64,000 nucleotides of DNA from Naegleria gruberi (GCA_000004985.1 GG738864.1), one strand, 5' to 3'. Numbered from the stretch's first letter, positions 2,137-18,881 are shown. Notes: generated from the sequence alone by a model not told the origin. Program-made: numbers and translations.

Positions 2137-4196
2137 GTTTCTTCTTCTGATTTCACAGCAGAAGTTGCTTCTGGAAGAGTTTCTTCTTTTTGAGATTTAA
2201 GTGCTTCCTTTTGTTCATGGAGTGATGGTTTGAACTTGGCAACAACCAAGTAAATGACACAAATCACTAATGAAACAACTGACATGAAGATACAAATTGT
2301 CATGAAACCAAATTCTGGTTGACCATTTTCCTTAAAACGATCAATAGCTTGAGAAAGTCCAAAGGCAATCAAAGTTGTCAAGATAATGTAACATGAGTAT
2401 AAGAAACTCATGACAGCTGCCAGCTCATTAACACCAGTCTTTTCGTTTGGTTCTTCAGACAGAGTTGATTGCAAATAAGCAACTTGAGAAATATCACCAG
2501 CAGCCCAAGAACCTGAAATTAACATCATGGCAGGAACCATACAAATAGCAAATATCAAGTTGTCATCAGTCTTTTCATTAAATGTCAAGAATGGGAAAAT
2601 CCACATCAAATTCAAAAACAAGCAATCCAAAACAATCCAAACTGTTGGAAGTTTCACCTTCTTGGCAAATATTAAGAGCATTCCAGCTCCACACAATTCA
2701 CCAAAGTTACTTCCACCCAACAGAATTCCAGAATAAGATCCCTTCTTGAGGATGTTCTTACTGTAAGCAGGGAGGAAGATATTTTCAATCAATCTATGGA
2801 GAACTTGTGGAATGACAAAGCATGGAATCAACCAAATGTAATATCTGTTGGTGAGGACTAATTTGGCACCAATGTACATGCTCTTGAAATAATTCTTGAT
2901 GACAGTTCCAATCTTTTTCAAAATTCTTAAAACTTTGTTGTTTGGTTGAGGAGTTGTTTCTTGAGCTGAGGTTGTAGGAGCAGATTCAGTTGAAGGAACA
3001 TTAACTTGTTCTTTGGTTTCAGAATCTTCAAAGATTTCAACTTCCTTCACAGTAATGAAGAAGAGGAAAATGGAAGCAGCAATGAAAAATACTGGAATGT
3101 GGAAGAGAGCAAAAATAGTTCCCATCTTTTCAATGAAAACACTTGATAAGAAGGCACCAACTGTACCTGCCAATTCATACGTTATGTGAACACCTGCATT
3201 AATTCTCTTCAGCACTGACGATTCATTATTACCTAAAATGGAAGCTGGTATAATCTTTCTCAAAACTTCCATCACACCAACGCTGAATCCAATGAAAATG
3301 TAAATAGGGAAGATAATCCAAGGAGTCCACCAACCAGCAGTGGTCAAAGTGCCACCTGTCGAAGCTTCCAAAATAATCATGACCACCACCAAAAGGGCAA
3401 AGAAAACCAAAGAAAGACAATACAATCTGGTAGCTCTAATAATTTTCAAGAGACCTTCAACAGTTGATGAAGAAATGGATTGAGCCAAACCAAATGAAAT
3501 TGTTAACAAGCTCAAAATTGTGGTAGCTCCCAAAGCATTTCCATCCAATCTATTCAAAATGGTCAACCCAATAGCTCCTGATAATGTTTCATATGAAAAT
3601 TTGAAACACATTGTACCTAGTAAGAATAATATCAGATTGGCAACTCTTCTCTTGAATCCCTTTGGCCTTTTCTTTTCAGTAGTTTGATCTTGTGTTTTGT
3701 GTGATTTGTGGTGGGTTTGATGTTGAAAATGATGAATTTGATTATCAGTGTGAACCATAGTTGGTAAAACGTTCTCGTTAAAGCAATCAAGCACATCATC
3801 AATATTATTGGCAACATTTTCTGAAGTATCCGAAACTGATGAACTCGATGTGATGGTATTAGTAGTAGTATTAGTTAATGTTACAGTGTGATTGTGATTA
3901 TGTTGGTGAATTAAATTCAATTGAGATGGAATTGTACAAAGTTTCAGATCTAAATCTGAAATATCATTTACATTGGTTTCTGGTGGAATATCTACATTTT
4001 CTGCTTCAAAAACAGCCCGTTCTTTAACTTGTTTAGATTCTGATTTGCCTAAATCAACAGCACGATGATTATCAGCAGTTGATTCTTCTGTTTGAGAATG
4101 CAAGTGAGGACTAGTCGATTCTTCAACGACAATAACTTGAATTGTTACTTCTTCTTCTTCTCTGTGTTGAGTACTATTTTCATTCGAAACAGTCAT
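2112..4196 (-). CDS. Multi-pass membrane protein, transporter-like (possibly MFS-type)
   Basis: Uninterrupted 694-aa ORF with ATG at 4196. The N-terminus is hydrophilic and His/Thr/Asn-rich, and about 12 hydrophobic segments follow, split by a hydrophilic central loop. The family assignment rests on topology only. Confidence 0.5.
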   Translation of the reverse strand: MTVSNENSTQHREEEEVTIQVIVVEESTSPHLHSQTEESTADNHRAVDLGKSESKQVKERAVFEAENVDIPPETNVNDISDLDLKLCTIPSQLNLIHQHNHNHTVTLTNTTTNTITSSSSVSDTSENVANNIDDVLDCFNENVLPTMVHTDNQIHHFQHQTHHKSHKTQDQTTEKKRPKGFKRRVANLILFLLGTMCFKFSYETLSGAIGLTILNRLDGNALGATTILSLLTISFGLAQSISSSTVEGLLKIIRATRLYCLSLVFFALLVVVMIILEASTGGTLTTAGWWTPWIIFPIYIFIGFSVGVMEVLRKIIPASILGNNESSVLKRINAGVHITYELAGTVGAFLSSVFIEKMGTIFALFHIPVFFIAASIFLFFITVKEVEIFEDSETKEQVNVPSTESAPTTSAQETTPQPNNKVLRILKKIGTVIKNYFKSMYIGAKLVLTNRYYIWLIPCFVIPQVLHRLIENIFLPAYSKNILKKGSYSGILLGGSNFGELCGAGMLLIFAKKVKLPTVWIVLDCLFLNLMWIFPFLTFNEKTDDNLIFAICMVPAMMLISGSWAAGDISQVAYLQSTLSEEPNEKTGVNELAAVMSFLYSCYIILTTLIAFGLSQAIDRFKENGQPEFGFMTICIFMSVVSLVICVIYLVVAKFKPSLHEQKEALKSQKEETLPEATSAVKSEEETQQVSVSV

Positions 4197-10231: not shown

Positions 10232-11449
10232 TTACACTTCTTGTGATTTCTTTTCCTCACTTGTTGATGAAACAGGAGTGGAATCTTCTGTTTCTCTTAC
10301 TTGCAAGGAAGTATCCTCGATCGTTGATTCAAGATCTTTAGATCTCACATCATCATTAGTTGCCACTGGTAAATACATTTCCTTCTTTAATTTTTCCATT
10401 TCCTCCTTATATTTAAAGTAAGAGTAAGCAATAGTTCCTAATACAGCAACAGCTATTCCAACAATATGATTAACATTCATTGGTTTATCATTTCCAAAGA
10501 ATAAATATCCTCCAATAAGAATAGAAATAGTTTTAGCATGTCCTAAAACTTGGAAGCTAATAAAAGTTAAATCCAACTGTTGTAATAATATCAAAATACA
10601 TACGTAAGTGGTGATAATTTACCAATTACCAAGTAACCAGCAATATTCACAACAAAAGCAGCAAAGCATGAAATGATTACAGAAATCTGATTTGATTAGT
10701 TGGAGATTTGAAATGAAAAACTTACGAAAAATGATGGATCTTGGATGAATCTCATAAAGCTATATGAAATTGAATCAACACCATCAATTGGAACTGCCAA
10801 AGAACCAACTAGAATTGATGAATACAATGAATGGTTCAATAATAATTCAAAACCATTGAGTTCATATTCTTTACAAAAGTAATTGATGGCCTTTAAGAAA
10901 TTAGAATGAATAATCTTTTTAAATACTCACAATCTGAGATGATGCTCCAAAAATGATTGCCAACAATGCAATGATCGATCCGAAAAAGTTTAAATAGAAA
11001 TCTCCTCCAATAACTAAAGCCATTCCTAAAACAATTAACATTAAACAGGCCAAAATCTTTGGTTCTACAACAGTACGGAACCAAACATAATTAATAGCAA
11101 GAATACATGGAATTACCATCAATTTAGCCAGCTGATAAACAGTGATGGAATTGTGAATTAAACTCAAGTTTCCTACGAGAATGGCCGAACCAATATTCAA
11201 TGCAAAGATTATTCCTGTCCTCACTGGTAATATTTTAGCTTTAAACAATTGAATGATCGGGTTGGATGAAACTCTTGTTAACAAAGTCAACAAGATGGAA
11301 ATTATATAGCATGATAAAAAGTGCAAAGCCATGAGCATTGTACCAGCCACTCGTTTATCCGTATAAATATACTTGTTCAGAAATATAATAGCCACACTAC
11401 TCGCATAGGAAAATAGCAAATAGCCAGCTTCTTGATATATTTTCGACAT
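10232..11449 (-). CDS. Triose-phosphate/nucleotide-sugar transporter family protein (SLC35E3-like), 4 exons
   Basis: Exons are 10931-11449, 10726-10890, 10604-10686 and 10232-10556, totalling 1092 nt (363 aa), all GT-AG with donors gtgagt, gtaagt and gtatgt. Splicing restores IGKLSPLT|FQVLGHAKT, which matches the conserved TPT/DMT motif region. Confidence 0.75.
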
Positions 11450-11851: not shown

Positions 11852-12843
11852 TTACTTCTTTTCAGACTTTTTCTTCAAATTGGTAATAGTTTCCTTAAGA
11901 ATCGGATCAGCATAGGCTTGAGCTTGAGCATCAGCTTCTCTGGTGATCATTTGTTCAAGACCTTGAATTTGTTGCATTCTCAAATTCTTTAAACATAATT
12001 TGGTTGCAATTGGAGGATTTCTTGCAATACGAGCTGCATAGTCCAATGCCTTTTCTCTGAGTTTATCTTCACCTTCGACAACTTCATAGACCATTCCAAT
12101 TTCGAGAGCTTTTTGAGCAGAAATCAAGTCACCAGTCAATAATAAAACACTGGCATTTTGATGACCAAGTAAATAAGGGAGGAATATGTAGAGGCCATAC
12201 CTGGTGATAAACCAATATTTACAAAGTTGACACCAAGTTTGGCACTTGTTTCAGCAAATCTGACATCTGTGGCCAAACTGATGGCCAAACCAGCACCTAC
12301 AGCATGTCCATTCAAAGCAGAAATGGTTGGAACTGGAGAGAATTTCAAAAGTGGTTCCAAGAATGAATTATAAAATTGAATCATTCTTCCAGAATTATTA
12401 TATGGTTGATCATTACAACGTTCCAATAAGAAATCAAAATCACCACCTGCACTGAAAGCAGATTTAACACCAGGAGTTTTAGATGGAGCACCTGTCAAGA
12501 CAATACATCCCAAATTCTTGTTTTTCATAATTTTATCACTTGTGAAAAGATCTCTAAATTGTTGAGCAGTTTTAACACAGAGTGCATTCATCTTTTCTGG
12601 CTTGTTAATAGTAACAATTCCGATGGTGGTTTCTTGATTGAATGGAGTGGTGAATTTTGGAGCAATTTGTGAGAGTGGAACTTCTTCAAAGACAATAAAT
12701 TGTTCTTGATCCGATGATGATGATGAACGATTCATGGACATGGTAGAGAAGGATCTTGATGAAGGCATCTTCATCATTGAAAAGCGAGAGGAAGAAGTGG
12801 CTCCAACAAGGGAGAGGACACGTCTTGAAGTGTTTTTGATCAT
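11852..12843 (-). CDS. Enoyl-CoA hydratase/isomerase (crotonase) family, probable mitochondrial; reading frame broken once
   Basis: The two ORFs 12136-12843 and 11852-12139 together give a crotonase fold: an S/R-rich N-terminal presequence, the GGDF oxyanion region, then GLSPGMAST(Y)FLPYLLGHQNASVLLLTGDLISAQKALEIGMVYEVV. The frame changes inside that conserved motif at about 12183-12186. Confidence 0.7.
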
Positions 12844-13143: not shown

Positions 13144-14013
13144 TTAATCGAGGGATTGAGATGCAAAACGTCCAGTATAAACAGCTCTACCTTCAAGCTT
13201 CATAAAGACGAATTGACACAAGTGAGTGCCTGGATACAATGCAAGAGAATTAGGACTAATGGAGTGTCAAAATGCAAAATTCATTTCAATAAACTTACCT
13301 AGCATTGAAAATTTCCAAGACTTGCTTGTTGTTAATACCTGGTTGCATGAAACCAGCAGTGATGTGAATAGCAAGACCCATACGAGCGAATCTAGATCTA
13401 CCTTCCAACAAACCACAGAAACTTGGTGAAATACTGACAGTTTCTTCAGTGATGCCCAAAACAGTTTGACCTGGTTTGAGAACAAAGCATTCACCCTTTG
13501 GAACCTTAACAACCTTTGAGTATTGCTTATAGTCAACGTCATCAGTAATTGGAATAACATCTTCGGAAACTGTCATTTCTCTGAATTCATCTCCAAGAGT
13601 TCTGTATAAGCATTATAAAATTGCATCATATTCAATATTGCATTTTGTATCATCATTTTGTGGTCAATAACATTTTCATTGCATTTTGATGAAATTTTTC
13701 ATGAATTTAAAAACACAAAGATTTTAAAAAGACACCTACAAGTCATAAGAAGCAGGACCCAAGTGAGACAAGTTGAATGGAGTGATGGTAATTTGTCTAT
13801 AGAGTTGCATCATTAAAAAGGTTCATATCAAACGTTACATTGATCATCACAATGACACACAACAATACATTCAAACATGGTCATCATTCCGAGTAATAAT
13901 ATCAAACAAAAGAGTAGCAGATTTATTGTTGGCACCCTGATGTGTGTCCAACCTTCTTCAACTTACTTGGCTTGAATAGCTTTCAAAATCGAGTCGCGGG
14001 AGAGAACAGACAT
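13144..14013 (-). CDS. dCTP deaminase / dUTPase-superfamily protein, 4 exons
   Basis: Exons are 13967-14013, 13740-13796, 13299-13601 and 13144-13255, totalling 519 nt (172 aa), with introns of 170, 138 and 43 nt, all GT-AG. The product reads MSVLSRDSILKAIQAKQITITPFNLSHLGPASYDLTLGDEF...HITAGFMQPGINNKQVLEIFNASPNSLALYPGTHLCQFVFMKL, which resembles bacterial/archaeal Dcd. Confidence 0.7.
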
Positions 14014-14443
14014 TTTTTTATATTAATTTATATATTAAATAATACAAATGATATTATTAGAGTATCTTTGTCTTGATTACTTTTTTGGGTGCATCAAGAA
14101 TTTTCTGCTCCATGCAACTTTCCAGGCGGCGGAATATATGTGAGGATTTATTTGACTGTGTATTACTTCATGAAATTAATATTAAACACTGTTTGGTACT
14201 ACAGATTTTACACTTGGAAGATAACGGGTAAAATTTCATACTGCTTTCATTCATCTGGGTAATGTCAATCAGCTTATTAAGGTTCTAATGGTTTCGTATT
14301 GTTACACCATCACTTGGCTGGGATAAATGGAAAAAAAAAGAGTCAACTAGTTCAATATTTGCTTTCAATTAGTTGGTTGAGCATAGTGGTATTTTAACCA
14401 TGAACCGTTCTCATTACTTTTCTAAAGTTTAAAAAATAGCAAA

Positions 14444-15877
14444 ATGAAACTTATCAATTTTCTAAGTCTTCTTGATAGCTGTTGGTGCACTGTCTTCTAA
14501 CTTGGTTTCGTCACAAGAAGTTAGGGATGTTTCTTTGAAAGTATGTTAAAAATCTCTAGATTTAGTCAATTACAAGCTTTTAAGATACACTGGCTTCTCT
14601 ATCGACCTAATTCAATTTCTTGTTTCCAAAATGACAAACGTGTCCATTGAATTTTATGAAGCTCCAGATGGTACCTTTGGTAGTCCAACTGCTGCGAATG
14701 TGAATGGAAACTGGTCAGGAACCATCGGTGAAATAATATCTGGTCGTGCTGATGTCATGATTGGCCCTTTAACAATTACTCAAAGTAGACATCAAGTCAT
14801 GGATTTTACAACAAGTTTCTTTGATGTTGGACTTTCTATTCTAACTCTTAAACAAGGAGAGGAATCTAATTTATTTTCATTCTTATTACCATTCTCGTGG
14901 GAGGTTTGGATTTTGATTTTCGTGAGTGCATTAATAGTTGCCTTGCTAACATGGGTTTTTGACCATGTTTCGCCTTATGGACATTCGAAACAATCAGACG
15001 AATCAAAGAATGAATTTGATTTTAGTGGTTCGTTAATCAATGTATGACAATATCTGGTCAAGACGGAAATCCAGGTAAAAGCTGGTCAACCAGAATCATG
15101 TTGTTAGGTTATTTCCTCTTTGTCATGATTATTCTCTCAACTTATACAGCTAATTTGGCAGCCGTCCTGACAACAAAGGTTCAATCCACAAGAGTTACTG
15201 GACTATCTGATATCAGAACCTACGGATTCAAGTTTGGTGTGGCTAAAAACTCTGCTCCTGCTTCTTACATTTCCAGCAGTGAAGACATGGCAGATATCAA
15301 AAAGAATATGGTTGTATTCGATTCCCTCGATGATTGTTTACAAGCTCTGAGAGATGGAAAGGTGGATGCTTTGATTTGGGCAAGTGCCATTCTCGAATAT
15401 ATGGCCAATCAACCACCATGTGATACTTTGGTCGTTGGTGATTTGTTTAGTCCTGGAAATTATGGTTTACCTTTTGCTAAGGGAAATTGGATGATTGGTC
15501 ATTTCACTTCGGTGTTGTTGTCGATGAGAGAAAGTGGACTTGTTGAGAAACTCAAAAGGAAGTGGTGGATTGATAAGGGAAGCTGTTCATTGGTTGAATT
15601 GACACAAACAGCAACAGGTGTAAAGATTCAAGACTTGGGAGGTATCTTTTTGATTTTGGCAGGTTTTGTAGTTGTTGGTGGTGTGGTTTTGATATTCGAA
15701 TTAGTATATAGGGCTGTATATGACAAGACAAAACACAAAACTAAACATCTGAAATATCTGAATAGATTCTTGGGAGGTGAAAAGCACCTAGTTCAACGTG
15801 AGAAAGATGTACAGGAATTGAACACCACGAATATTGCAACTCCAACACTCGAAAAAGATGGGAATATGAACCAGTAA
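14444..15877 (+). CDS. Ionotropic glutamate receptor-like channel without amino-terminal domain; frame disrupted
   Basis: An S1 lobe (YTGFSIDL...GPLTITQSRHQVMDFTTSFFDVGLSIL) is followed by M1, a pore-loop region (NEFDFS/WFVNQCMTISGQDG) and M3 with the STYTANLAAVLT signature. Then come the S2 lobe and M4 (GGIFLILAGFVVVGGVVLIF). Frame problems occur near 14470, at the TAA at 14547-14549 and near 15024-15026. Confidence 0.7.
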
Positions 15878-16055: not shown

Positions 16056-16173
16056 GGCTACGGCCATATCACGATGAATGCACCTCATCCCGTCCGATTT
16101 GAGAAGTTAAGCATCGTCGAGCCACATCAGTACTGAGGTTGGAGACAACTTGGGAACCTGTGGTGCTGTAGTC
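16056..16173 (+). rRNA. 5S ribosomal RNA
   Basis: The 118-nt sequence GGCTACGGCCATATCACG...GGGAACCTGTGGTGCTGTAGTC aligns by eye to the eukaryotic 5S consensus. The terminal helix I pairs and a T6 run follows directly. Confidence 0.9.
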
Positions 16174-16288
16174 TTTTTTATTTAACATTTTTTTATTCTG
16201 CCTTAATAAACTGTATTGTCTAGACTTTCTTTGAAACTGAATTTACGTGAATTTATTCGGCTGGAACTTGATTTTTACCACCTTATTA
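16126..16288 (+). repeat. Left arm of inverted duplication (5S 3' portion plus downstream flank)
   Basis: This arm aligns by eye to the reverse complement of 17488-17636. Shared blocks are atcagtactgaggtt(g/a)gagacaacttgg(g)aacctgtg, ttatt(ctg/cca)ccttaataaact, ttctttgaa and ttaccaccttatta. Confidence 0.7.
16174..16179 (+). terminator. Pol III oligo-T terminator of the 5S gene
   Basis: TTTTTT immediately after the 5S 3' end. Confidence 0.7.
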
Positions 16289-16321: not shown

Positions 16322-17278
16322 TTACACCATCAAACAGCCTTTCTTTTTTTTATGTAGAGATAATACCTCTTCCAGCACTTTTTTTGGATCATCAATACGT
16401 ACTCGAAACTTTCTAACACATTCTTCCACTAATTTATCAATATTTTCATTTGTTTTTGCACTTGTTTTCAAAATTGTACAATTAGTCAATTCAAATTCTT
16501 TTACAACTTCTTGTACCATTTCCAAATTAATTTCATACCTATCAGGGAGATCACATTTGTTCATGGCAATCATACAGGGAGCATTCTTTCCCTTCCTATC
16601 TACAAATTTACTTATCAATATTTTCAATTCTTCCAAACTTTTCTGGTCTATCATTGAGCAAACAAGAATCAAAACATCGAACATGCAATTTTTCCAATAA
16701 TAATCAGTTTCTTCCTCACTACACGTATCCAAAAAGTTTACAGTTTCCTCTTCATCATCCACAGAGATTGTTCGTTTGTACGAATCATAACCGGTAGGGT
16801 CATATTCTAGGAAGAATTGCCCATATATAAATCTTGTTATGATTGAGGATTTTCCACTGCCTCCCCTTCCAATCACTAACAGCTCAATAATTGGTGTATC
16901 AAATTTTTTTCTAAATATTTTCCCTTGTTTTTCTCTTGTTCGAATCAAATGAATAAAGTAACCTAAACTTTTAACAACTCCAATCTTGGCGAATTTATCA
17001 AAAACATGCAAAGATTCCATTTCTTTTGATTCTACTGATATCGAATACTGATCAAATATCACACCAACAAAAATCCAACAAAATTCATCAATGTATTTTG
17101 CAATAAATTTCGAATAATTTGGATGAATCAATCGGAAACTTAATACATTCGGAATGGAGTTTTTTAATTGATGGAAATATTGTTCATGCAATTTTCTTTC
17201 AGCTAACTCATAAAACGGAGACAAGTATGAAATAATTTCTGTATGAATCTCTTGGGGAAGTTGAAGAAATTTGGACAT
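16322..17278 (-). CDS. Ras-superfamily small GTPase with N-terminal F-box-like extension and CaaX end
   Basis: 318-aa ORF with N-terminal LPQEIHTEIISYLSP (F-box-like). The GTPase motifs are G1 GRGGSGKS, a divergent G3 DTCSEEE (consensus DTAGQEE), G4 NKCD and G5 SAK. The C-terminus is KKKKGCLMV, polybasic plus CaaX. Confidence 0.7.
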   Translation of the reverse strand: MSKFLQLPQEIHTEIISYLSPFYELAERKLHEQYFHQLKNSIPNVLSFRLIHPNYSKFIAKYIDEFCWIFVGVIFDQYSISVESKEMESLHVFDKFAKIGVVKSLGYFIHLIRTREKQGKIFRKKFDTPIIELLVIGRGGSGKSSIITRFIYGQFFLEYDPTGYDSYKRTISVDDEEETVNFLDTCSEEETDYYWKNCMFDVLILVCSMIDQKSLEELKILISKFVDRKGKNAPCMIAMNKCDLPDRYEINLEMVQEVVKEFELTNCTILKTSAKTNENIDKLVEECVRKFRVRIDDPKKVLEEVLSLHKKKKGCLMV

Positions 17279-17393: not shown

Positions 17394-17466
17394 GCCGACA
17401 TAGCTCAGTTGGGAGAGCGTAAGACTGAAGATCTTAAGGTCCCTGGTTCGATCCCTGGTGTCGGCA
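17394..17466 (+). tRNA. tRNA-Phe (anticodon GAA)
   Basis: A 73-nt cloverleaf: acceptor GCCGACA/TGTCGGC plus discriminator A, D arm GCTC-AGTTGGGA-GAGC, anticodon arm TAAGA-CTGAAGA-TCTTA, and T arm CCTGG-TTCGATC-CCTGG with one T:T mismatch. An oligo-T run follows. Confidence 0.85.
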
Positions 17467-17864: not shown

Positions 17865-18881
17865 TCAAATAACACCAATATCAAGTGATGTTAATTGTTT
17901 CATTTCACTTATGAATTTGGATCCTTCTACACCAATTTGATTGTAAGTAATGTCAAGTGATGTTAATTGTTTCATTTCACTTATGAATTTGGCTCCTTCT
18001 ACACCAATTTGATTGCCAGTAATATTAAGTGTTAATTGTTTCATTTCACTTATAAATTTGGATCCTTCTACACCAATTTGATTGTAACCAATATTAAGTG
18101 ATGTTAATTGTTTCATTTCACTTATATATTTGGATCCCTCTACACCAATCCCATTATAATATATATCAAGTGATGTTAATTGTTTCATTTCACTTATGTA
18201 TTTGGCTCCTTCTACACCAATTTGATTGTAACCAATATTAAGTGATGTTAATTGTTTCATTTCACTTATATATTTGGTTCCCTCTACACCAATTCCATTA
18301 TAATATATATTAAGTGATGTTAACTGTTTCATTTCACTTATGTATTTGGATCCTTCTACACCAATTTGATTGTAAGTAATGTCAAGTGATGTTAATTGTT
18401 TCATTTCACTTATGTATTTGGCTCCTTCTACACCAATTTGATTATCAGAAATATAAAGTGATGTTAATTGTTTCATTTCACTTATGAATTTAACTTTATC
18501 TGGAGAGTTACGCAACCTATAACAAAACTTAACATTTACAATACTATTCTTGAATTGGCTTTTCATAAACAATTCAATTCTATTTTCTGTAAATTGTTTT
18601 TTAAATTGAATAACAAGTCTTGAACGTTCCCGGATCACATTAAAGAATTGTTTTGAAATTAAAGAACAATTATTCAAAATAAACCACGAATCATCAATCA
18701 TGGAAATTATGTCAAAACAAACATCATCTGAAAATATATCTTGTTGGAGTTTCACAACTTTTTTTGCTTTCTCTTTCATCGAATAATTATCATTAATCAA
18801 TAGCTCCTCCGAAATTAATTGATTTGCAAAATCTTGGCTGATTCGTTTGCTCATTTTTTTATTACTAATAGTTTTCTTCAT
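17865..18881 (-). CDS. Leucine-rich-repeat protein with possible degenerate F-box-like N-terminus
   Basis: 338-aa ORF. The C-terminal 210 aa are 8.5 near-identical 24-residue units of the form ISEMKQLTSL(D/N)IxYNxIGVEG(A/S/T)K(Y/F). Confidence 0.75.
   Translation of the reverse strand: MKKTISNKKMSKRISQDFANQLISEELLINDNYSMKEKAKKVVKLQQDIFSDDVCFDIISMIDDSWFILNNCSLISKQFFNVIRERSRLVIQFKKQFTENRIELFMKSQFKNSIVNVKFCYRLRNSPDKVKFISEMKQLTSLYISDNQIGVEGAKYISEMKQLTSLDITYNQIGVEGSKYISEMKQLTSLNIYYNGIGVEGTKYISEMKQLTSLNIGYNQIGVEGAKYISEMKQLTSLDIYYNGIGVEGSKYISEMKQLTSLNIGYNQIGVEGSKFISEMKQLTLNITGNQIGVEGAKFISEMKQLTSLDITYNQIGVEGSKFISEMKQLTSLDIGVI
17868..18490. repeat. 72-bp tandem repeat array (coding LRR units)
   Basis: About 8.5 head-to-tail copies of a 72-bp unit with high nucleotide identity. 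One unit carries an in-frame 3-nt deletion (LTLNI in place of LTSLNI). Confidence 0.8.

What the first reader, a model, noticed from the sequence alone, without database searches (positions are those of the whole stretch)
14444..15877. Minimal ionotropic glutamate receptor homologue without an amino-terminal domain, with a disrupted reading frame
The gene encodes S1, M1, pore loop, M3 (STYTANLAAVLT signature), S2 and M4 in about 450 residues. Only about 430 bp separate it from the upstream gene, so no large amino-terminal domain can be encoded here. That layout resembles bacterial GluR0-type and other minimal iGluRs rather than metazoan receptors, and the pore loop (WFVNQCMTISGQDG) lacks a K-channel-like TxVGYG. 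The frame is broken three times. The ATG at 14444 is out of frame with the obvious signal-peptide continuation LIAVGALSSNLVSS. A TAA lies in frame at 14547-14549. A 1-nt shift falls between NEFDFS and WFVNQ at about 15024-15026, inside residues homologous to the conserved NEFxxFNSLWF segment, so an intron cannot explain it.
Basis: partly seen in the sequence, partly recalled or inferred. Interest (0 to 1): 0.6.

Follow-up and report, generated by a model that had tools for sequence, protein, structure and literature searches.

The report
Broken amoeba glutamate-receptor channel gene
This is an already annotated Naegleria gruberi gene for a short, animal-like glutamate-receptor ion channel that lacks the large amino-terminal domain; this copy carries a real reading-frame break in the pore region and is probably a recently inactivated duplicate, so the finding is largely ordinary.

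Summary
The window is Naegleria gruberi nuclear DNA. The gene at about 14.1-15.9 kb is GenBank XP_002677912.1 ("predicted protein"). It was used, with two N. gruberi paralogues, in a 2025 phylogeny that defined an Amoebozoa/Discoba iGluR clade.

The family call is solid. Pfam finds Lig_chan, Lig_chan-Glu_bd and SBP_bac_3. The best solved relatives are GluN1 and GluA2 (E about 1e-51). A model of the paralogue superposes on AMPA-receptor LBD-TMD chains.

The architecture without an amino-terminal domain is real: three metagenomic homologues run signal peptide straight into S1. In sequence the protein is animal-like, not GluR0-like. It has M4 and the S2 cysteine pair, and it has no TxVGYG.

Of the three reported breaks:
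- The third is real but misplaced. It lies at 15041/15042 and is a 4-nt deficit relative to all homologues. "WFVNQ" is out-of-frame text.
- The TAA is real. It sits in a 14-codon stretch that has lost the conserved PPF strand.
- The out-of-frame ATG may simply not be the start codon. An upstream mini-exon plus a 327-nt intron is a candidate alternative.

The public gene model hides the frameshift behind a 104-nt "intron" that deletes M1. The most likely reading is a recently inactivated paralogue. Assembly error is the main rival.

The parts
14112..14139 (+). Candidate 5' mini-exon (ATG CAA CTT ... = MQLSRRRNI plus 1 nt). Inferred, not shown.
   Evidence: Eight in-phase ATG-to-donor combinations join the 14467 acceptor without a stop. 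This is the only one with a consensus donor (TAT|GTGAGG). Joined to 14467 it gives MQLSRRRNIFFLIAVGALSSNLVSS, a canonical signal peptide. All three N. gruberi gene models start at the first in-frame Met downstream of this acceptor position, as expected if a mini-exon was missed.
14140..14466 (+). Candidate intron 1 (327 nt, GTGAGG...TTTTCTAAG).
   Evidence: ATG 14444 opens MKLINFLSLLDSCWCTVF*, which is out of frame with the downstream coding frame.
14467..14540 (+). Hydrophobic core and cleavage region of the signal peptide, then the first S1 residues (FLIAVGALSSNLVSS QEVRDVSLK).
   Evidence: QEVRDVSLK aligns with PVKDTVIRA, AVQNVQLRA and PVKDVVLRA of L001, L003 and L002. There is no ATG in this frame.
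14541..14582 (+). Degenerated S1 strand (VC*KSLDLVNYKLL) with the in-frame TAA at 14547-14549. Alternatively, 14541-14576 is a 36-nt in-frame intron (GTATGT...ACAAG).
   Evidence: It takes the place of the conserved xTIxQPPFVFxN strand, which is LKIVTIHQEPFVYV in GluN1. These are the only columns conserved at 85% or more in the family at which the window differs. Coordinates.
14583..14897 (+). S1 half of the ligand-binding domain (RYTGFSIDL ... GPLTITQSR ... SFLLPFS).
   Evidence: Pfam Lig_chan-Glu_bd 3.7e-22. tblastn to L001 from 14583. The ligand-carboxylate Arg in GPLTITQSR (14763-14789) is invariant in alignments A2 and A3.
14898..14960 (+). M1 transmembrane helix (WEVWILIFVSALIVALLTWVF).
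   Evidence: Conserved in all family members. Helix 88-111 in the AlphaFold model of paralogue P0002.
14922..15025 (+). The 'intron' of the public gene model XP_002677912.1 (104 nt, GTGAGT...TTTTAG). It removes most of M1 and restores the frame. Judged an annotation artefact.
   Evidence: Exons 14631-14921 plus 15026-15877 translate exactly to P0001. The removed segment is coding, and 31 of 35 residues are identical, in paralogue P0002.
15039..15049 (+). Site of the real frame break: AAT GTATG ACA, 4 nt short of the family's N-x-x-x-T spacing. It lies in the pore-helix segment.
   Evidence: P0002 reads SLINACMTISGQDG here.
15044..15172 (+). Pore loop (MTISGQDGNPGKSWSTR) and M3 with the gate motif STYTANLAAVLT (15137-15172).
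   Evidence: Pfam Lig_chan 1.3e-26. Coordinates. No K-channel filter.
15173..15640 (+). S2 half of the ligand-binding domain, including ALIWASAILEY (15368-15400), PPCDTL (15413-15430) and KWWIDKGSC (15560-15586).
   Evidence: Alignment to GluN1 and GluA2. Family alignment. Coordinates.
15641..15877 (+). M4 helix (15641-15709), cytoplasmic tail with the clade motif LKYLNRFLGG (15749-15778), and stop TAA 15875-15877.

Best explanation
**What it is.** The locus is the Naegleria gruberi gene annotated as XP_002677912.1. It belongs to the Amoebozoa/Discoba clade of short ionotropic glutamate receptors.

**Layout.** Signal peptide, S1, M1, pore loop, M3 (SYTANLAA gate), S2, M4, then a cytoplasmic tail with an HRF(L/F)GG-type motif. 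There is no amino-terminal domain.

**How intact members should work (inferred).** By homology with GluA2 and GluN1 they should assemble as tetramers. A small ligand closing the S1-S2 clamshell would pull M3 open and pass cations. In an amoeba this would most plausibly serve chemosensing.

**State of this copy.** As assembled, it cannot make that protein.
- A 4-nt deficit at 15041/15042 shifts the frame inside the pore helix.
- An in-frame TAA sits in a stretch of S1 that has lost the conserved PPF strand.

The rest of the gene shows almost no decay, so I read this copy as a recently inactivated paralogue, or a null allele, of XP_002681313.1. The public model is an artefact that bridges the frameshift by splicing out M1.

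**Shown versus inferred.** Shown: family membership, architecture, and the position and size of the frame break. Inferred: that the lesions exist in the organism rather than only in the assembly, and the physiological role.
For: - **Identity of the locus.** P0001, 'predicted protein [Naegleria gruberi]', equals exons 14631-14921 plus 15026-15877. It is listed as XP_002677912.1 in the sequence set of Commun Biol 2025;8:994, which describes the Amoebozoa/Discoba clade.
- **Family.** Pfam hits. GluN1 and GluA2 at E about 1e-51 across S1 to M4. The AlphaFold model of P0002 (pLDDT 77) matches AMPA-receptor LBD-TMD chains at E about 1e-25.
- **No amino-terminal domain.** L001 is an uninterrupted 492-aa ORF. 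L002 and L003 have the same N-termini. About 20 relatives are 447-592 aa.
- **Frameshift.** tblastn switches frame at 15041. A codon-level comparison shows a 4-nt deficit. P0002 is continuous there. A 4-nt loss between ATG repeats looks like a slippage mutation, not a typical base-calling error (inference).
- **S1 lesion.** The TAA plus the loss of the P-F columns are the only departures from columns conserved at 85% or more.
- **Rate.** The window copy carries 25 derived residues against 13 in the paralogue (p = 0.07), a weak trend towards relaxed constraint.
Against: - Apart from these lesions, the 448 remaining codons are stop-free and keep every other conserved column. Inactivation would have to be very recent, or not real.
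- The rate asymmetry is not significant.
- The neighbouring enoyl-CoA hydratase gene also has a 1-nt deletion (TTT to TT at 12182) relative to a 97.9%-identical environmental contig in which that gene is intact. Frame-breaking indels in this draft assembly may therefore be errors.
- The TAA could lie in a 36-nt in-frame intron, and the ATG problem disappears under the mini-exon model. That leaves a single lesion.
- No reads, transcripts or paralogue DNA could be examined.
Confidence: 0.55

Rival explanations
1. The gene is intact and functional in the organism. The pore-region frameshift is an error of the draft Sanger assembly. The out-of-frame ATG is explained by a missed 5' mini-exon with a 327-nt intron. 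The TAA is either a base-call error or lies in a short intron.
For: - The coding body is almost perfectly preserved.
- The neighbouring ECH gene has a 1-nt homopolymer deletion absent from a 97.9%-identical relative. The public models of both genes step around such indels.
- A mini-exon with a consensus GTGAGG donor restores a canonical signal peptide.
- All three N. gruberi models start at the first Met downstream of that acceptor.
- A 47-nt intron is documented in the related locus L003. A candidate 40-nt intron lies in this window at 10891-10930.
Against: - The deficit is 4 nt, not 1 nt. An error explanation needs either a rare 4-nt consensus loss, or a natural 1-codon deletion in the pore helix plus a 1-nt error.
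- The S1 stretch differs from the family at many positions, which errors cannot produce.
- Splicing the 36-nt candidate intron would delete the conserved PPF strand.
- Pfam could not confirm the 40-nt intron candidate.
Confidence: 0.3
2. The public model is right. The 104-nt segment 14922-15025 really is spliced out (GTGAGT...TTTTAG), and the locus expresses an M1-less, N-terminally truncated protein starting at Met 14631.
For: - The model's intron has consensus splice signals and restores the frame.
- The downstream 283 codons are open.
Against: - The removed segment encodes M1. It is conserved throughout the family and is coding in the 83%-identical paralogue.
- The product would have no signal peptide, no first S1 strands and an impossible membrane topology.
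- The GTGAGT arises from a Val-Ser codon pair where the paralogue has Ala-Ser.
Confidence: 0.05
3. It is a GluR0-type receptor of bacterial origin (recent horizontal transfer or contamination), as the layout without an amino-terminal domain suggested to the first reader.
For: - There is no amino-terminal domain.
- IMG annotates metagenomic relatives as 'ABC-type amino acid transport substrate-binding protein'.
Against: - M4 is present, there is no TxVGYG, and the S2 cysteine pair is present.
- Animal iGluRs score far better than the one short, ATD-less metagenome protein I take to be bacterial-type; its origin was not established.
- The gene sits in a 442-kb N. gruberi scaffold among typical Naegleria genes with the same base composition.
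- Relatives occur in Pyxidicula, an amoebozoan. One homologue (L003) carries a spliceosomal intron.
Confidence: 0.03

Closest known systems
Amoebozoa/Discoba iGluR clade (Commun Biol 2025;8:994, PMC12226733), including N. gruberi XP_002681313.1 and XP_002676467.1
   Same: - This very gene (XP_002677912.1) is in that paper's sequence set.
- It is 83% identical to XP_002681313.1.
- The layout, M4, the gate motif, the S2 cysteines and the C-terminal (L/F)xYxxRF(L/F)GG motif are shared with 447-592-aa relatives from metagenomes and Pyxidicula.
   Different: - The window copy has a frameshift in the pore helix, a TAA, and a degenerated PPF strand in S1.
- The published protein sequence for it lacks M1 because of a model artefact. 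In the passages I read, that paper does not mention this.
Metazoan iGluRs (GluN1, GluA2; AKDF and NMDA classes)
   Same: - S1-M1-P-M3-S2-M4 order, the SYTANLAA gate, the ligand-carboxylate Arg, the PCD...KGxC cysteine pair and the KWW motif.
- E about 1e-51 to solved GluN1 and GluA2 chains, and 27-30% identity.
   Different: - No amino-terminal domain (no ANF_receptor hit).
- Gly at the position aligned with the GluN1 N-site, by my reading of the alignment.
- Ala instead of the acidic residue that binds the ligand amino group (GluN1 D732, GluA2 E705) in ALIWASAILEY.
- A short tail with a clade-specific motif.
Prokaryotic GluR0 (Synechocystis) and the rotifer receptor AvGluR1
   Same: GluR0 also lacks an amino-terminal domain and has the S1-channel-S2 order (background from PMC2924276).
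   Different: - GluR0 has no M4, and both carry a K-channel TxVGYG filter (PMC12455266; PMC3483616).
- The window protein has M4 and no such filter.
- It is much closer in sequence to animal receptors.

Membership tests
Ionotropic glutamate receptor superfamily | Bilobed S1/S2 ligand-binding domain split by the channel | tested here: met
   Pfam Lig_chan-Glu_bd 3.7e-22 and SBP_bac_3 2.6e-12, spanning residues on both sides of the channel. Alignment to GluN1 S1 and S2.
Ionotropic glutamate receptor superfamily | M1-pore loop-M3 channel core with a SYTANLAAF-type gate | tested here: met
   Pfam Lig_chan 1.3e-26, profile positions 1-143 of 146. STYTANLAAVLT at 15137-15172.
Ionotropic glutamate receptor superfamily | Conserved Arg that binds the ligand alpha-carboxylate (GluA2 R485) | tested here: met
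   The R in GPLTITQSR (14763-14789) is an invariant column in alignments A2 and A3.
Ionotropic glutamate receptor superfamily | Acidic residue that binds the ligand alpha-amino group (GluA2 E705, GluN1 D732) | tested here: not met
   Ala in ALIWASAILEY. It is Val in P0002 and Ala in L001, but Asp in XP_002676467.1 and about half of the clade. This bears on ligand type, not on family membership.
Ionotropic glutamate receptor superfamily | One open reading frame encoding the whole subunit | tested here: not met
   A 4-nt deficit at 15041/15042, TAA at 14547, and no in-frame ATG contiguous with the signal peptide.
Metazoan and plant full-length iGluRs | Amino-terminal domain (ANF_receptor, PF01094) before S1 | tested here: not met
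   No PF01094 hit in the repaired protein, in L001 or in P0002. S1 starts about 25-30 residues after the initiator Met in L001, L002 and L003. The upstream neighbours are minus-strand genes.
Metazoan and plant full-length iGluRs | M4 helix after S2, and the S2 disulfide cysteines | tested here: met
   GIFLILAGFVVVGGVVLIFELVY at 15641-15709. Helix 336-379 in the P0002 model. PPCDTL and KGSC are conserved.
GluR0-type prokaryotic glutamate receptor | No amino-terminal domain | tested here: met
GluR0-type prokaryotic glutamate receptor | Only M1-P-M2, with no M4 | tested here: not met
   M4 is present.
GluR0-type prokaryotic glutamate receptor | K-channel-like TxVGYG selectivity filter | tested here: not met
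   No GYG or TxVGxG in any frame of 14444-15877.
Amoebozoa/Discoba iGluR clade | Groups with the published clade members | tested here: met
   The gene is in the paper's Discoba sequence set, next to its paralogues. The profile search ranks short amoebal and metagenomic relatives (230-372 bits) above long animal-type receptors (about 200 bits). I did not build a tree.
Amoebozoa/Discoba iGluR clade | C-terminal (L/F)xYxxRF(L/F)GG motif after M4. This is my own observation, not a published criterion. | tested here: met
   LKYLNRFLGG at 15749-15778. The motif is present in most of P0037-P0055.
Pseudogene | Frame-disrupting lesions relative to intact homologues | tested here: met
Pseudogene | Relaxed constraint (excess of derived changes, dN/dS near 1) | tested here: inconclusive
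   25 derived residues against 13 in the paralogue, p = 0.07. dN/dS could not be computed because the paralogue DNA could not be fetched.
Pseudogene | Lesions present in the organism (reads, second assembly, transcripts) | not testable with these tools
   No N. gruberi reads or transcripts were reachable. An exact look-up of the 277-aa ORF found nothing.

The most novel reading that the evidence does not exclude
The two closely related N. gruberi genes (XP_002677912.1 and XP_002681313.1) are both functional and share a remodelled 5' end. That end would consist of a 28-nt mini-exon, a roughly 330-nt intron, and an S1 domain that has dispensed with the otherwise universal PPF strand. Their binding site lacks the acidic residue that holds the amino group of amino-acid ligands. 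They would then be receptors without an amino-terminal domain, tuned to a ligand other than an amino acid, in a free-living amoeba. The frameshift in this copy would be an assembly error.
Probability: 0.12. Interest if true: 0.45.

Novelty: already known. Interest (0 to 1): 0.2.

Why it matters
Receptors of the animal iGluR type that lack an amino-terminal domain, found in amoebae, bear on where the family came from. An early survey reported none in unicellular eukaryotes (PMC2924276). The 2025 phylogeny recovered an Amoebozoa/Discoba clade that is either paralogous to NMDA receptors or sister to all eukaryotic iGluRs. That point is already published.

What this analysis adds is small and practical:
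- The public protein XP_002677912.1, which was used in that phylogeny, is a model artefact missing M1.
- The locus carries a 4-nt frame break and a degenerated S1 strand.
- The N-termini of all three N. gruberi models are probably truncated.

Anyone who expresses or aligns these proteins should use corrected sequences.

Tried and rejected
- **Paralogue DNA.** Exact look-ups of P0001, P0002 and the 277-aa window ORF in the contig index found nothing. I therefore could not obtain paralogue DNA, compute dN/dS or find an independent copy of the locus.
- **Metagenome scan.** A scan with the family alignment returned only two distant loci, L004 and L005, which are not of this clade.
- **Intron at the pore-region break.** Rejected. 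The only GT...AG option (GTATGA...CAAG, 21 nt) would remove the conserved MTISGQ residues, and the homologues are collinear there.
- **Thirteen-nucleotide 'intron' in the signal peptide.** GTCTTCTTGATAG would fix the frame but was rejected as far too short.
- **Stop-codon reassignment (TAA = Gln, as in ciliates).** Rejected. The gene's own terminator is TAA and the neighbouring genes translate as long ORFs under the standard code.
- **Programmed frameshifting.** Considered and set aside. There is no slippery-site context, and the deficit is 4 nt relative to the homologues.
- **A frameshift in the dCTP-deaminase gene.** Checked and rejected. An in-frame ATG at 13813 gives MMQLYRQITITPF....
- **Confirming the candidate 40-nt intron at 10891-10930.** Pfam gave no hits.
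- **Structure prediction of the repaired window protein.** The paralogue P0002 was modelled instead.
- **Literature.** Searches for Naegleria together with iGluR terms found no paper that discusses these genes in its main text.

Full report
**Origin and identity.** The window is AT-rich (about 33% G+C) eukaryotic DNA. It carries a 5S rRNA gene and a tRNA-Phe gene. It also encodes F-box/Ras and leucine-rich-repeat proteins.

A search with the repaired translation returned two "predicted protein [Naegleria gruberi]" entries:
- P0001 is 380 aa and lies on a 441,990-bp scaffold.
- P0002 is 417 aa, 83% identical, and lies on another scaffold.

P0001 is the gene model of this very locus. Exons 14631-14921 plus 15026-15877 translate exactly to it.

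The supplementary sequence file of Commun Biol 2025;8:994 lists P0001 as XP_002677912.1. It lists P0002 as XP_002681313.1, and a third N. gruberi paralogue as XP_002676467.1. That paper describes "a clade of receptors from ... Amoebozoa and Discoba" that is attached to the animal cluster. The gene and its clade are therefore already in the literature.

**Family and fold.**
- The repaired protein hits Lig_chan (1.3e-26), Lig_chan-Glu_bd (3.7e-22) and SBP_bac_3.
- The intact homologue L001 matches solved GluN1 and GluA2 chains at E about 1e-51 from S1 through M4.
- An AlphaFold model of P0002 (pLDDT 77) matches AMPA-receptor LBD-TMD chains at E about 1e-25.
- M1, the pore loop, M3 with STYTANLAAVLT, S2 with PPCDTL and KWWIDKGSC, and M4 are all present.
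- There is no K-channel filter.

**Architecture.** Three metagenomic homologues (L001, L002 and L003, 46-48% identical to the window protein) run from a signal peptide directly into S1.
- L001 is a single uninterrupted 492-aa ORF with the same three Pfam domains and no ANF_receptor hit.
- A profile search of 1.8 billion representatives places about 20 proteins of 447-592 aa above the long animal-type receptors (230-372 bits against about 200 bits).
- One of these comes from the amoebozoan Pyxidicula operculata.
- They share the layout and a C-terminal (L/F)xYxxRF(L/F)GG motif.

In the window, the upstream neighbours are minus-strand genes: a dCTP-deaminase-like gene starting at 13813, and an enoyl-CoA hydratase gene. 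The layout without an amino-terminal domain is therefore real.

It is not GluR0-like in any other respect. The protein has M4 and the S2 cysteine pair. Animal receptors score far better than the one short, ATD-less metagenome protein that I take to be bacterial-type, whose origin was not established (2e-49 against 8e-16).

**The frame disruptions.**

- The paralogue reads NELDFSGSLINACMTISGQDG in one frame.
- tblastn with L001 follows the first frame to ...GSLIN (15041) and then switches.
- At the DNA level, L001, L002 and L003 have AAT + 9 nt + ACN. The window has AAT (15039-41) + GTATG + ACA.
- The break is therefore a 4-nt deficit at 15041/15042, inside the pore-helix segment.
- "WFVNQ" is out-of-frame text. 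The real counterpart of metazoan NSLWF is GSLIN.
- No intron can account for the break.
- The public model steps over it with a 104-nt "intron" (14922-15025, GTGAGT...TTTTAG). That intron deletes M1, a segment that is coding and conserved in the paralogue.

*(b) TAA at 14547-14549.* This is confirmed.
- It lies in a 14-codon stretch (VC*KSLDLVNYKLL, 14541-14582).
- That stretch replaces the strongly conserved xTIxQPPFVFxN strand, which is LKIVTIHQEPFVYV in GluN1.
- Both flanks (QEVRDVSLK and RYTGFSIDL) are conserved and in the same frame.
- The stretch starts with GTATGT, and 14541-14576 could be a 36-nt in-frame intron. Splicing it would remove a conserved strand.
- The shortest intron I could document in a relative is 47 nt (L003).

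*(c) ATG 14444.* It is indeed out of frame, but it need not be the start codon.
- Eight in-phase ATG-to-donor combinations could join the acceptor at 14466/14467.
- Only one has a consensus donor: ATG 14112 ... TAT|GTGAGG at 14140.
- It yields MQLSRRRNIFFLIAVGALSSNLVSS, a canonical signal peptide.
- All three N. gruberi models begin at the first in-frame Met downstream of that acceptor position. That is what a gene finder would do if it missed a 28-nt first exon. This is an inference.

**Pseudogene or assembly error?**

For a real and recent inactivation:
- The deficit is 4 nt, flanked by ATG repeats, which looks like slippage.
- The S1 stretch has diverged at many positions.
- The window copy has 25 derived residues against 13 in its paralogue (p = 0.07).

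Against a real inactivation:
- Every other column conserved at 85% or more is intact, and 448 codons are stop-free.
- The adjacent enoyl-CoA hydratase gene also has a frame-breaking indel. The window has TT at 12182, where a 97.9%-identical environmental contig (L006) has TTT and an intact 330-aa gene (P0188). All other coding indels between the two sequences are multiples of 3.
- The public model of that gene, P0189, again skips the site.
- Draft-assembly errors are therefore a serious rival.

I put about 0.55 on real lesions (a pseudogene or a null allele) and about 0.30 on an intact gene that was mis-assembled or mis-annotated.

**Mechanism of intact members (inferred from homology).** They should form tetramers. 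Ligand-induced closure of the S1-S2 clamshell would open the M3 gate. The carboxylate-binding Arg is present. The acidic contact for the ligand amino group is Ala here, Val in P0002 and Ala in L001, but Asp in XP_002676467.1 and about half of the clade. The ligand of this subgroup may therefore not be a standard amino acid. The residue aligned with the GluN1 N-site is Gly, by my reading of the alignment.

**Verdict.** The finding is a real but already known gene of a published clade. The useful by-product is a correction of the public gene model.

Noticed in passing
window 11855-12843 (minus strand), indel at 12182: The enoyl-CoA hydratase gene is frameshifted: GMASTY | FLPYLLGHQNAS. The window has ACATATTCC where a 97.9%-identical ENA contig (L006, ERZ929261) has ACATATTTCC and an intact 330-aa protein (P0188). 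The repaired protein covers ECH_1 positions 3-238 of 251 (1.4e-39). The public N. gruberi model P0189 skips the site.
   Followed up: yes
window 16056-16174 (+) and 17394-17466 (+): A 5S rRNA gene (105 bits) lies 179 nt downstream of the iGluR stop codon. A tRNA-Phe(GAA) gene lies 1.2 kb further on. These are dispersed small-RNA genes between protein-coding genes.
   Followed up: no
L002 2498-3629: The iGluR homologue in a second metagenomic contig also looks broken. There is a frame change near 3270, internal deletions in S2 (VVEY and CDTLKV are missing), and a stop before M4. Decay of copies may be common in this family.
   Followed up: partly
window 15749-15778, and P0037-P0055: A conserved cytoplasmic motif (L/F)xYxxRF(L/F)GG follows M4 in most short amoebal and metagenomic iGluRs. 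I did not see it described in the passages I read.
   Followed up: partly
window 10891-10930 (minus strand): A candidate 40-nt intron (GTGAGT...TTCTTAAAG) joins two ORFs of a multi-pass membrane protein. Pfam gave no hit, so it remains unconfirmed.
   Followed up: partly
window 16322-17278 (minus) and 17865-18881 (minus): A 318-aa protein carries a Ras-family GTPase domain; its N-terminal part looks F-box-like by eye, which was not tested. A 338-aa protein is made of ISEMKQLTSL-type leucine-rich repeats. To my recollection (not checked here) both kinds are typical of expanded Naegleria families.
   Followed up: no
P0042 (Papaver somniferum RZC75549.1, 2362 aa): A plant-genome 'hypothetical protein' matches the amoebal iGluR profile in five separate stretches at 307 bits, better than true plant GLRs would be expected to score. 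This may be a tandem array or a contaminant in that assembly.
   Followed up: no
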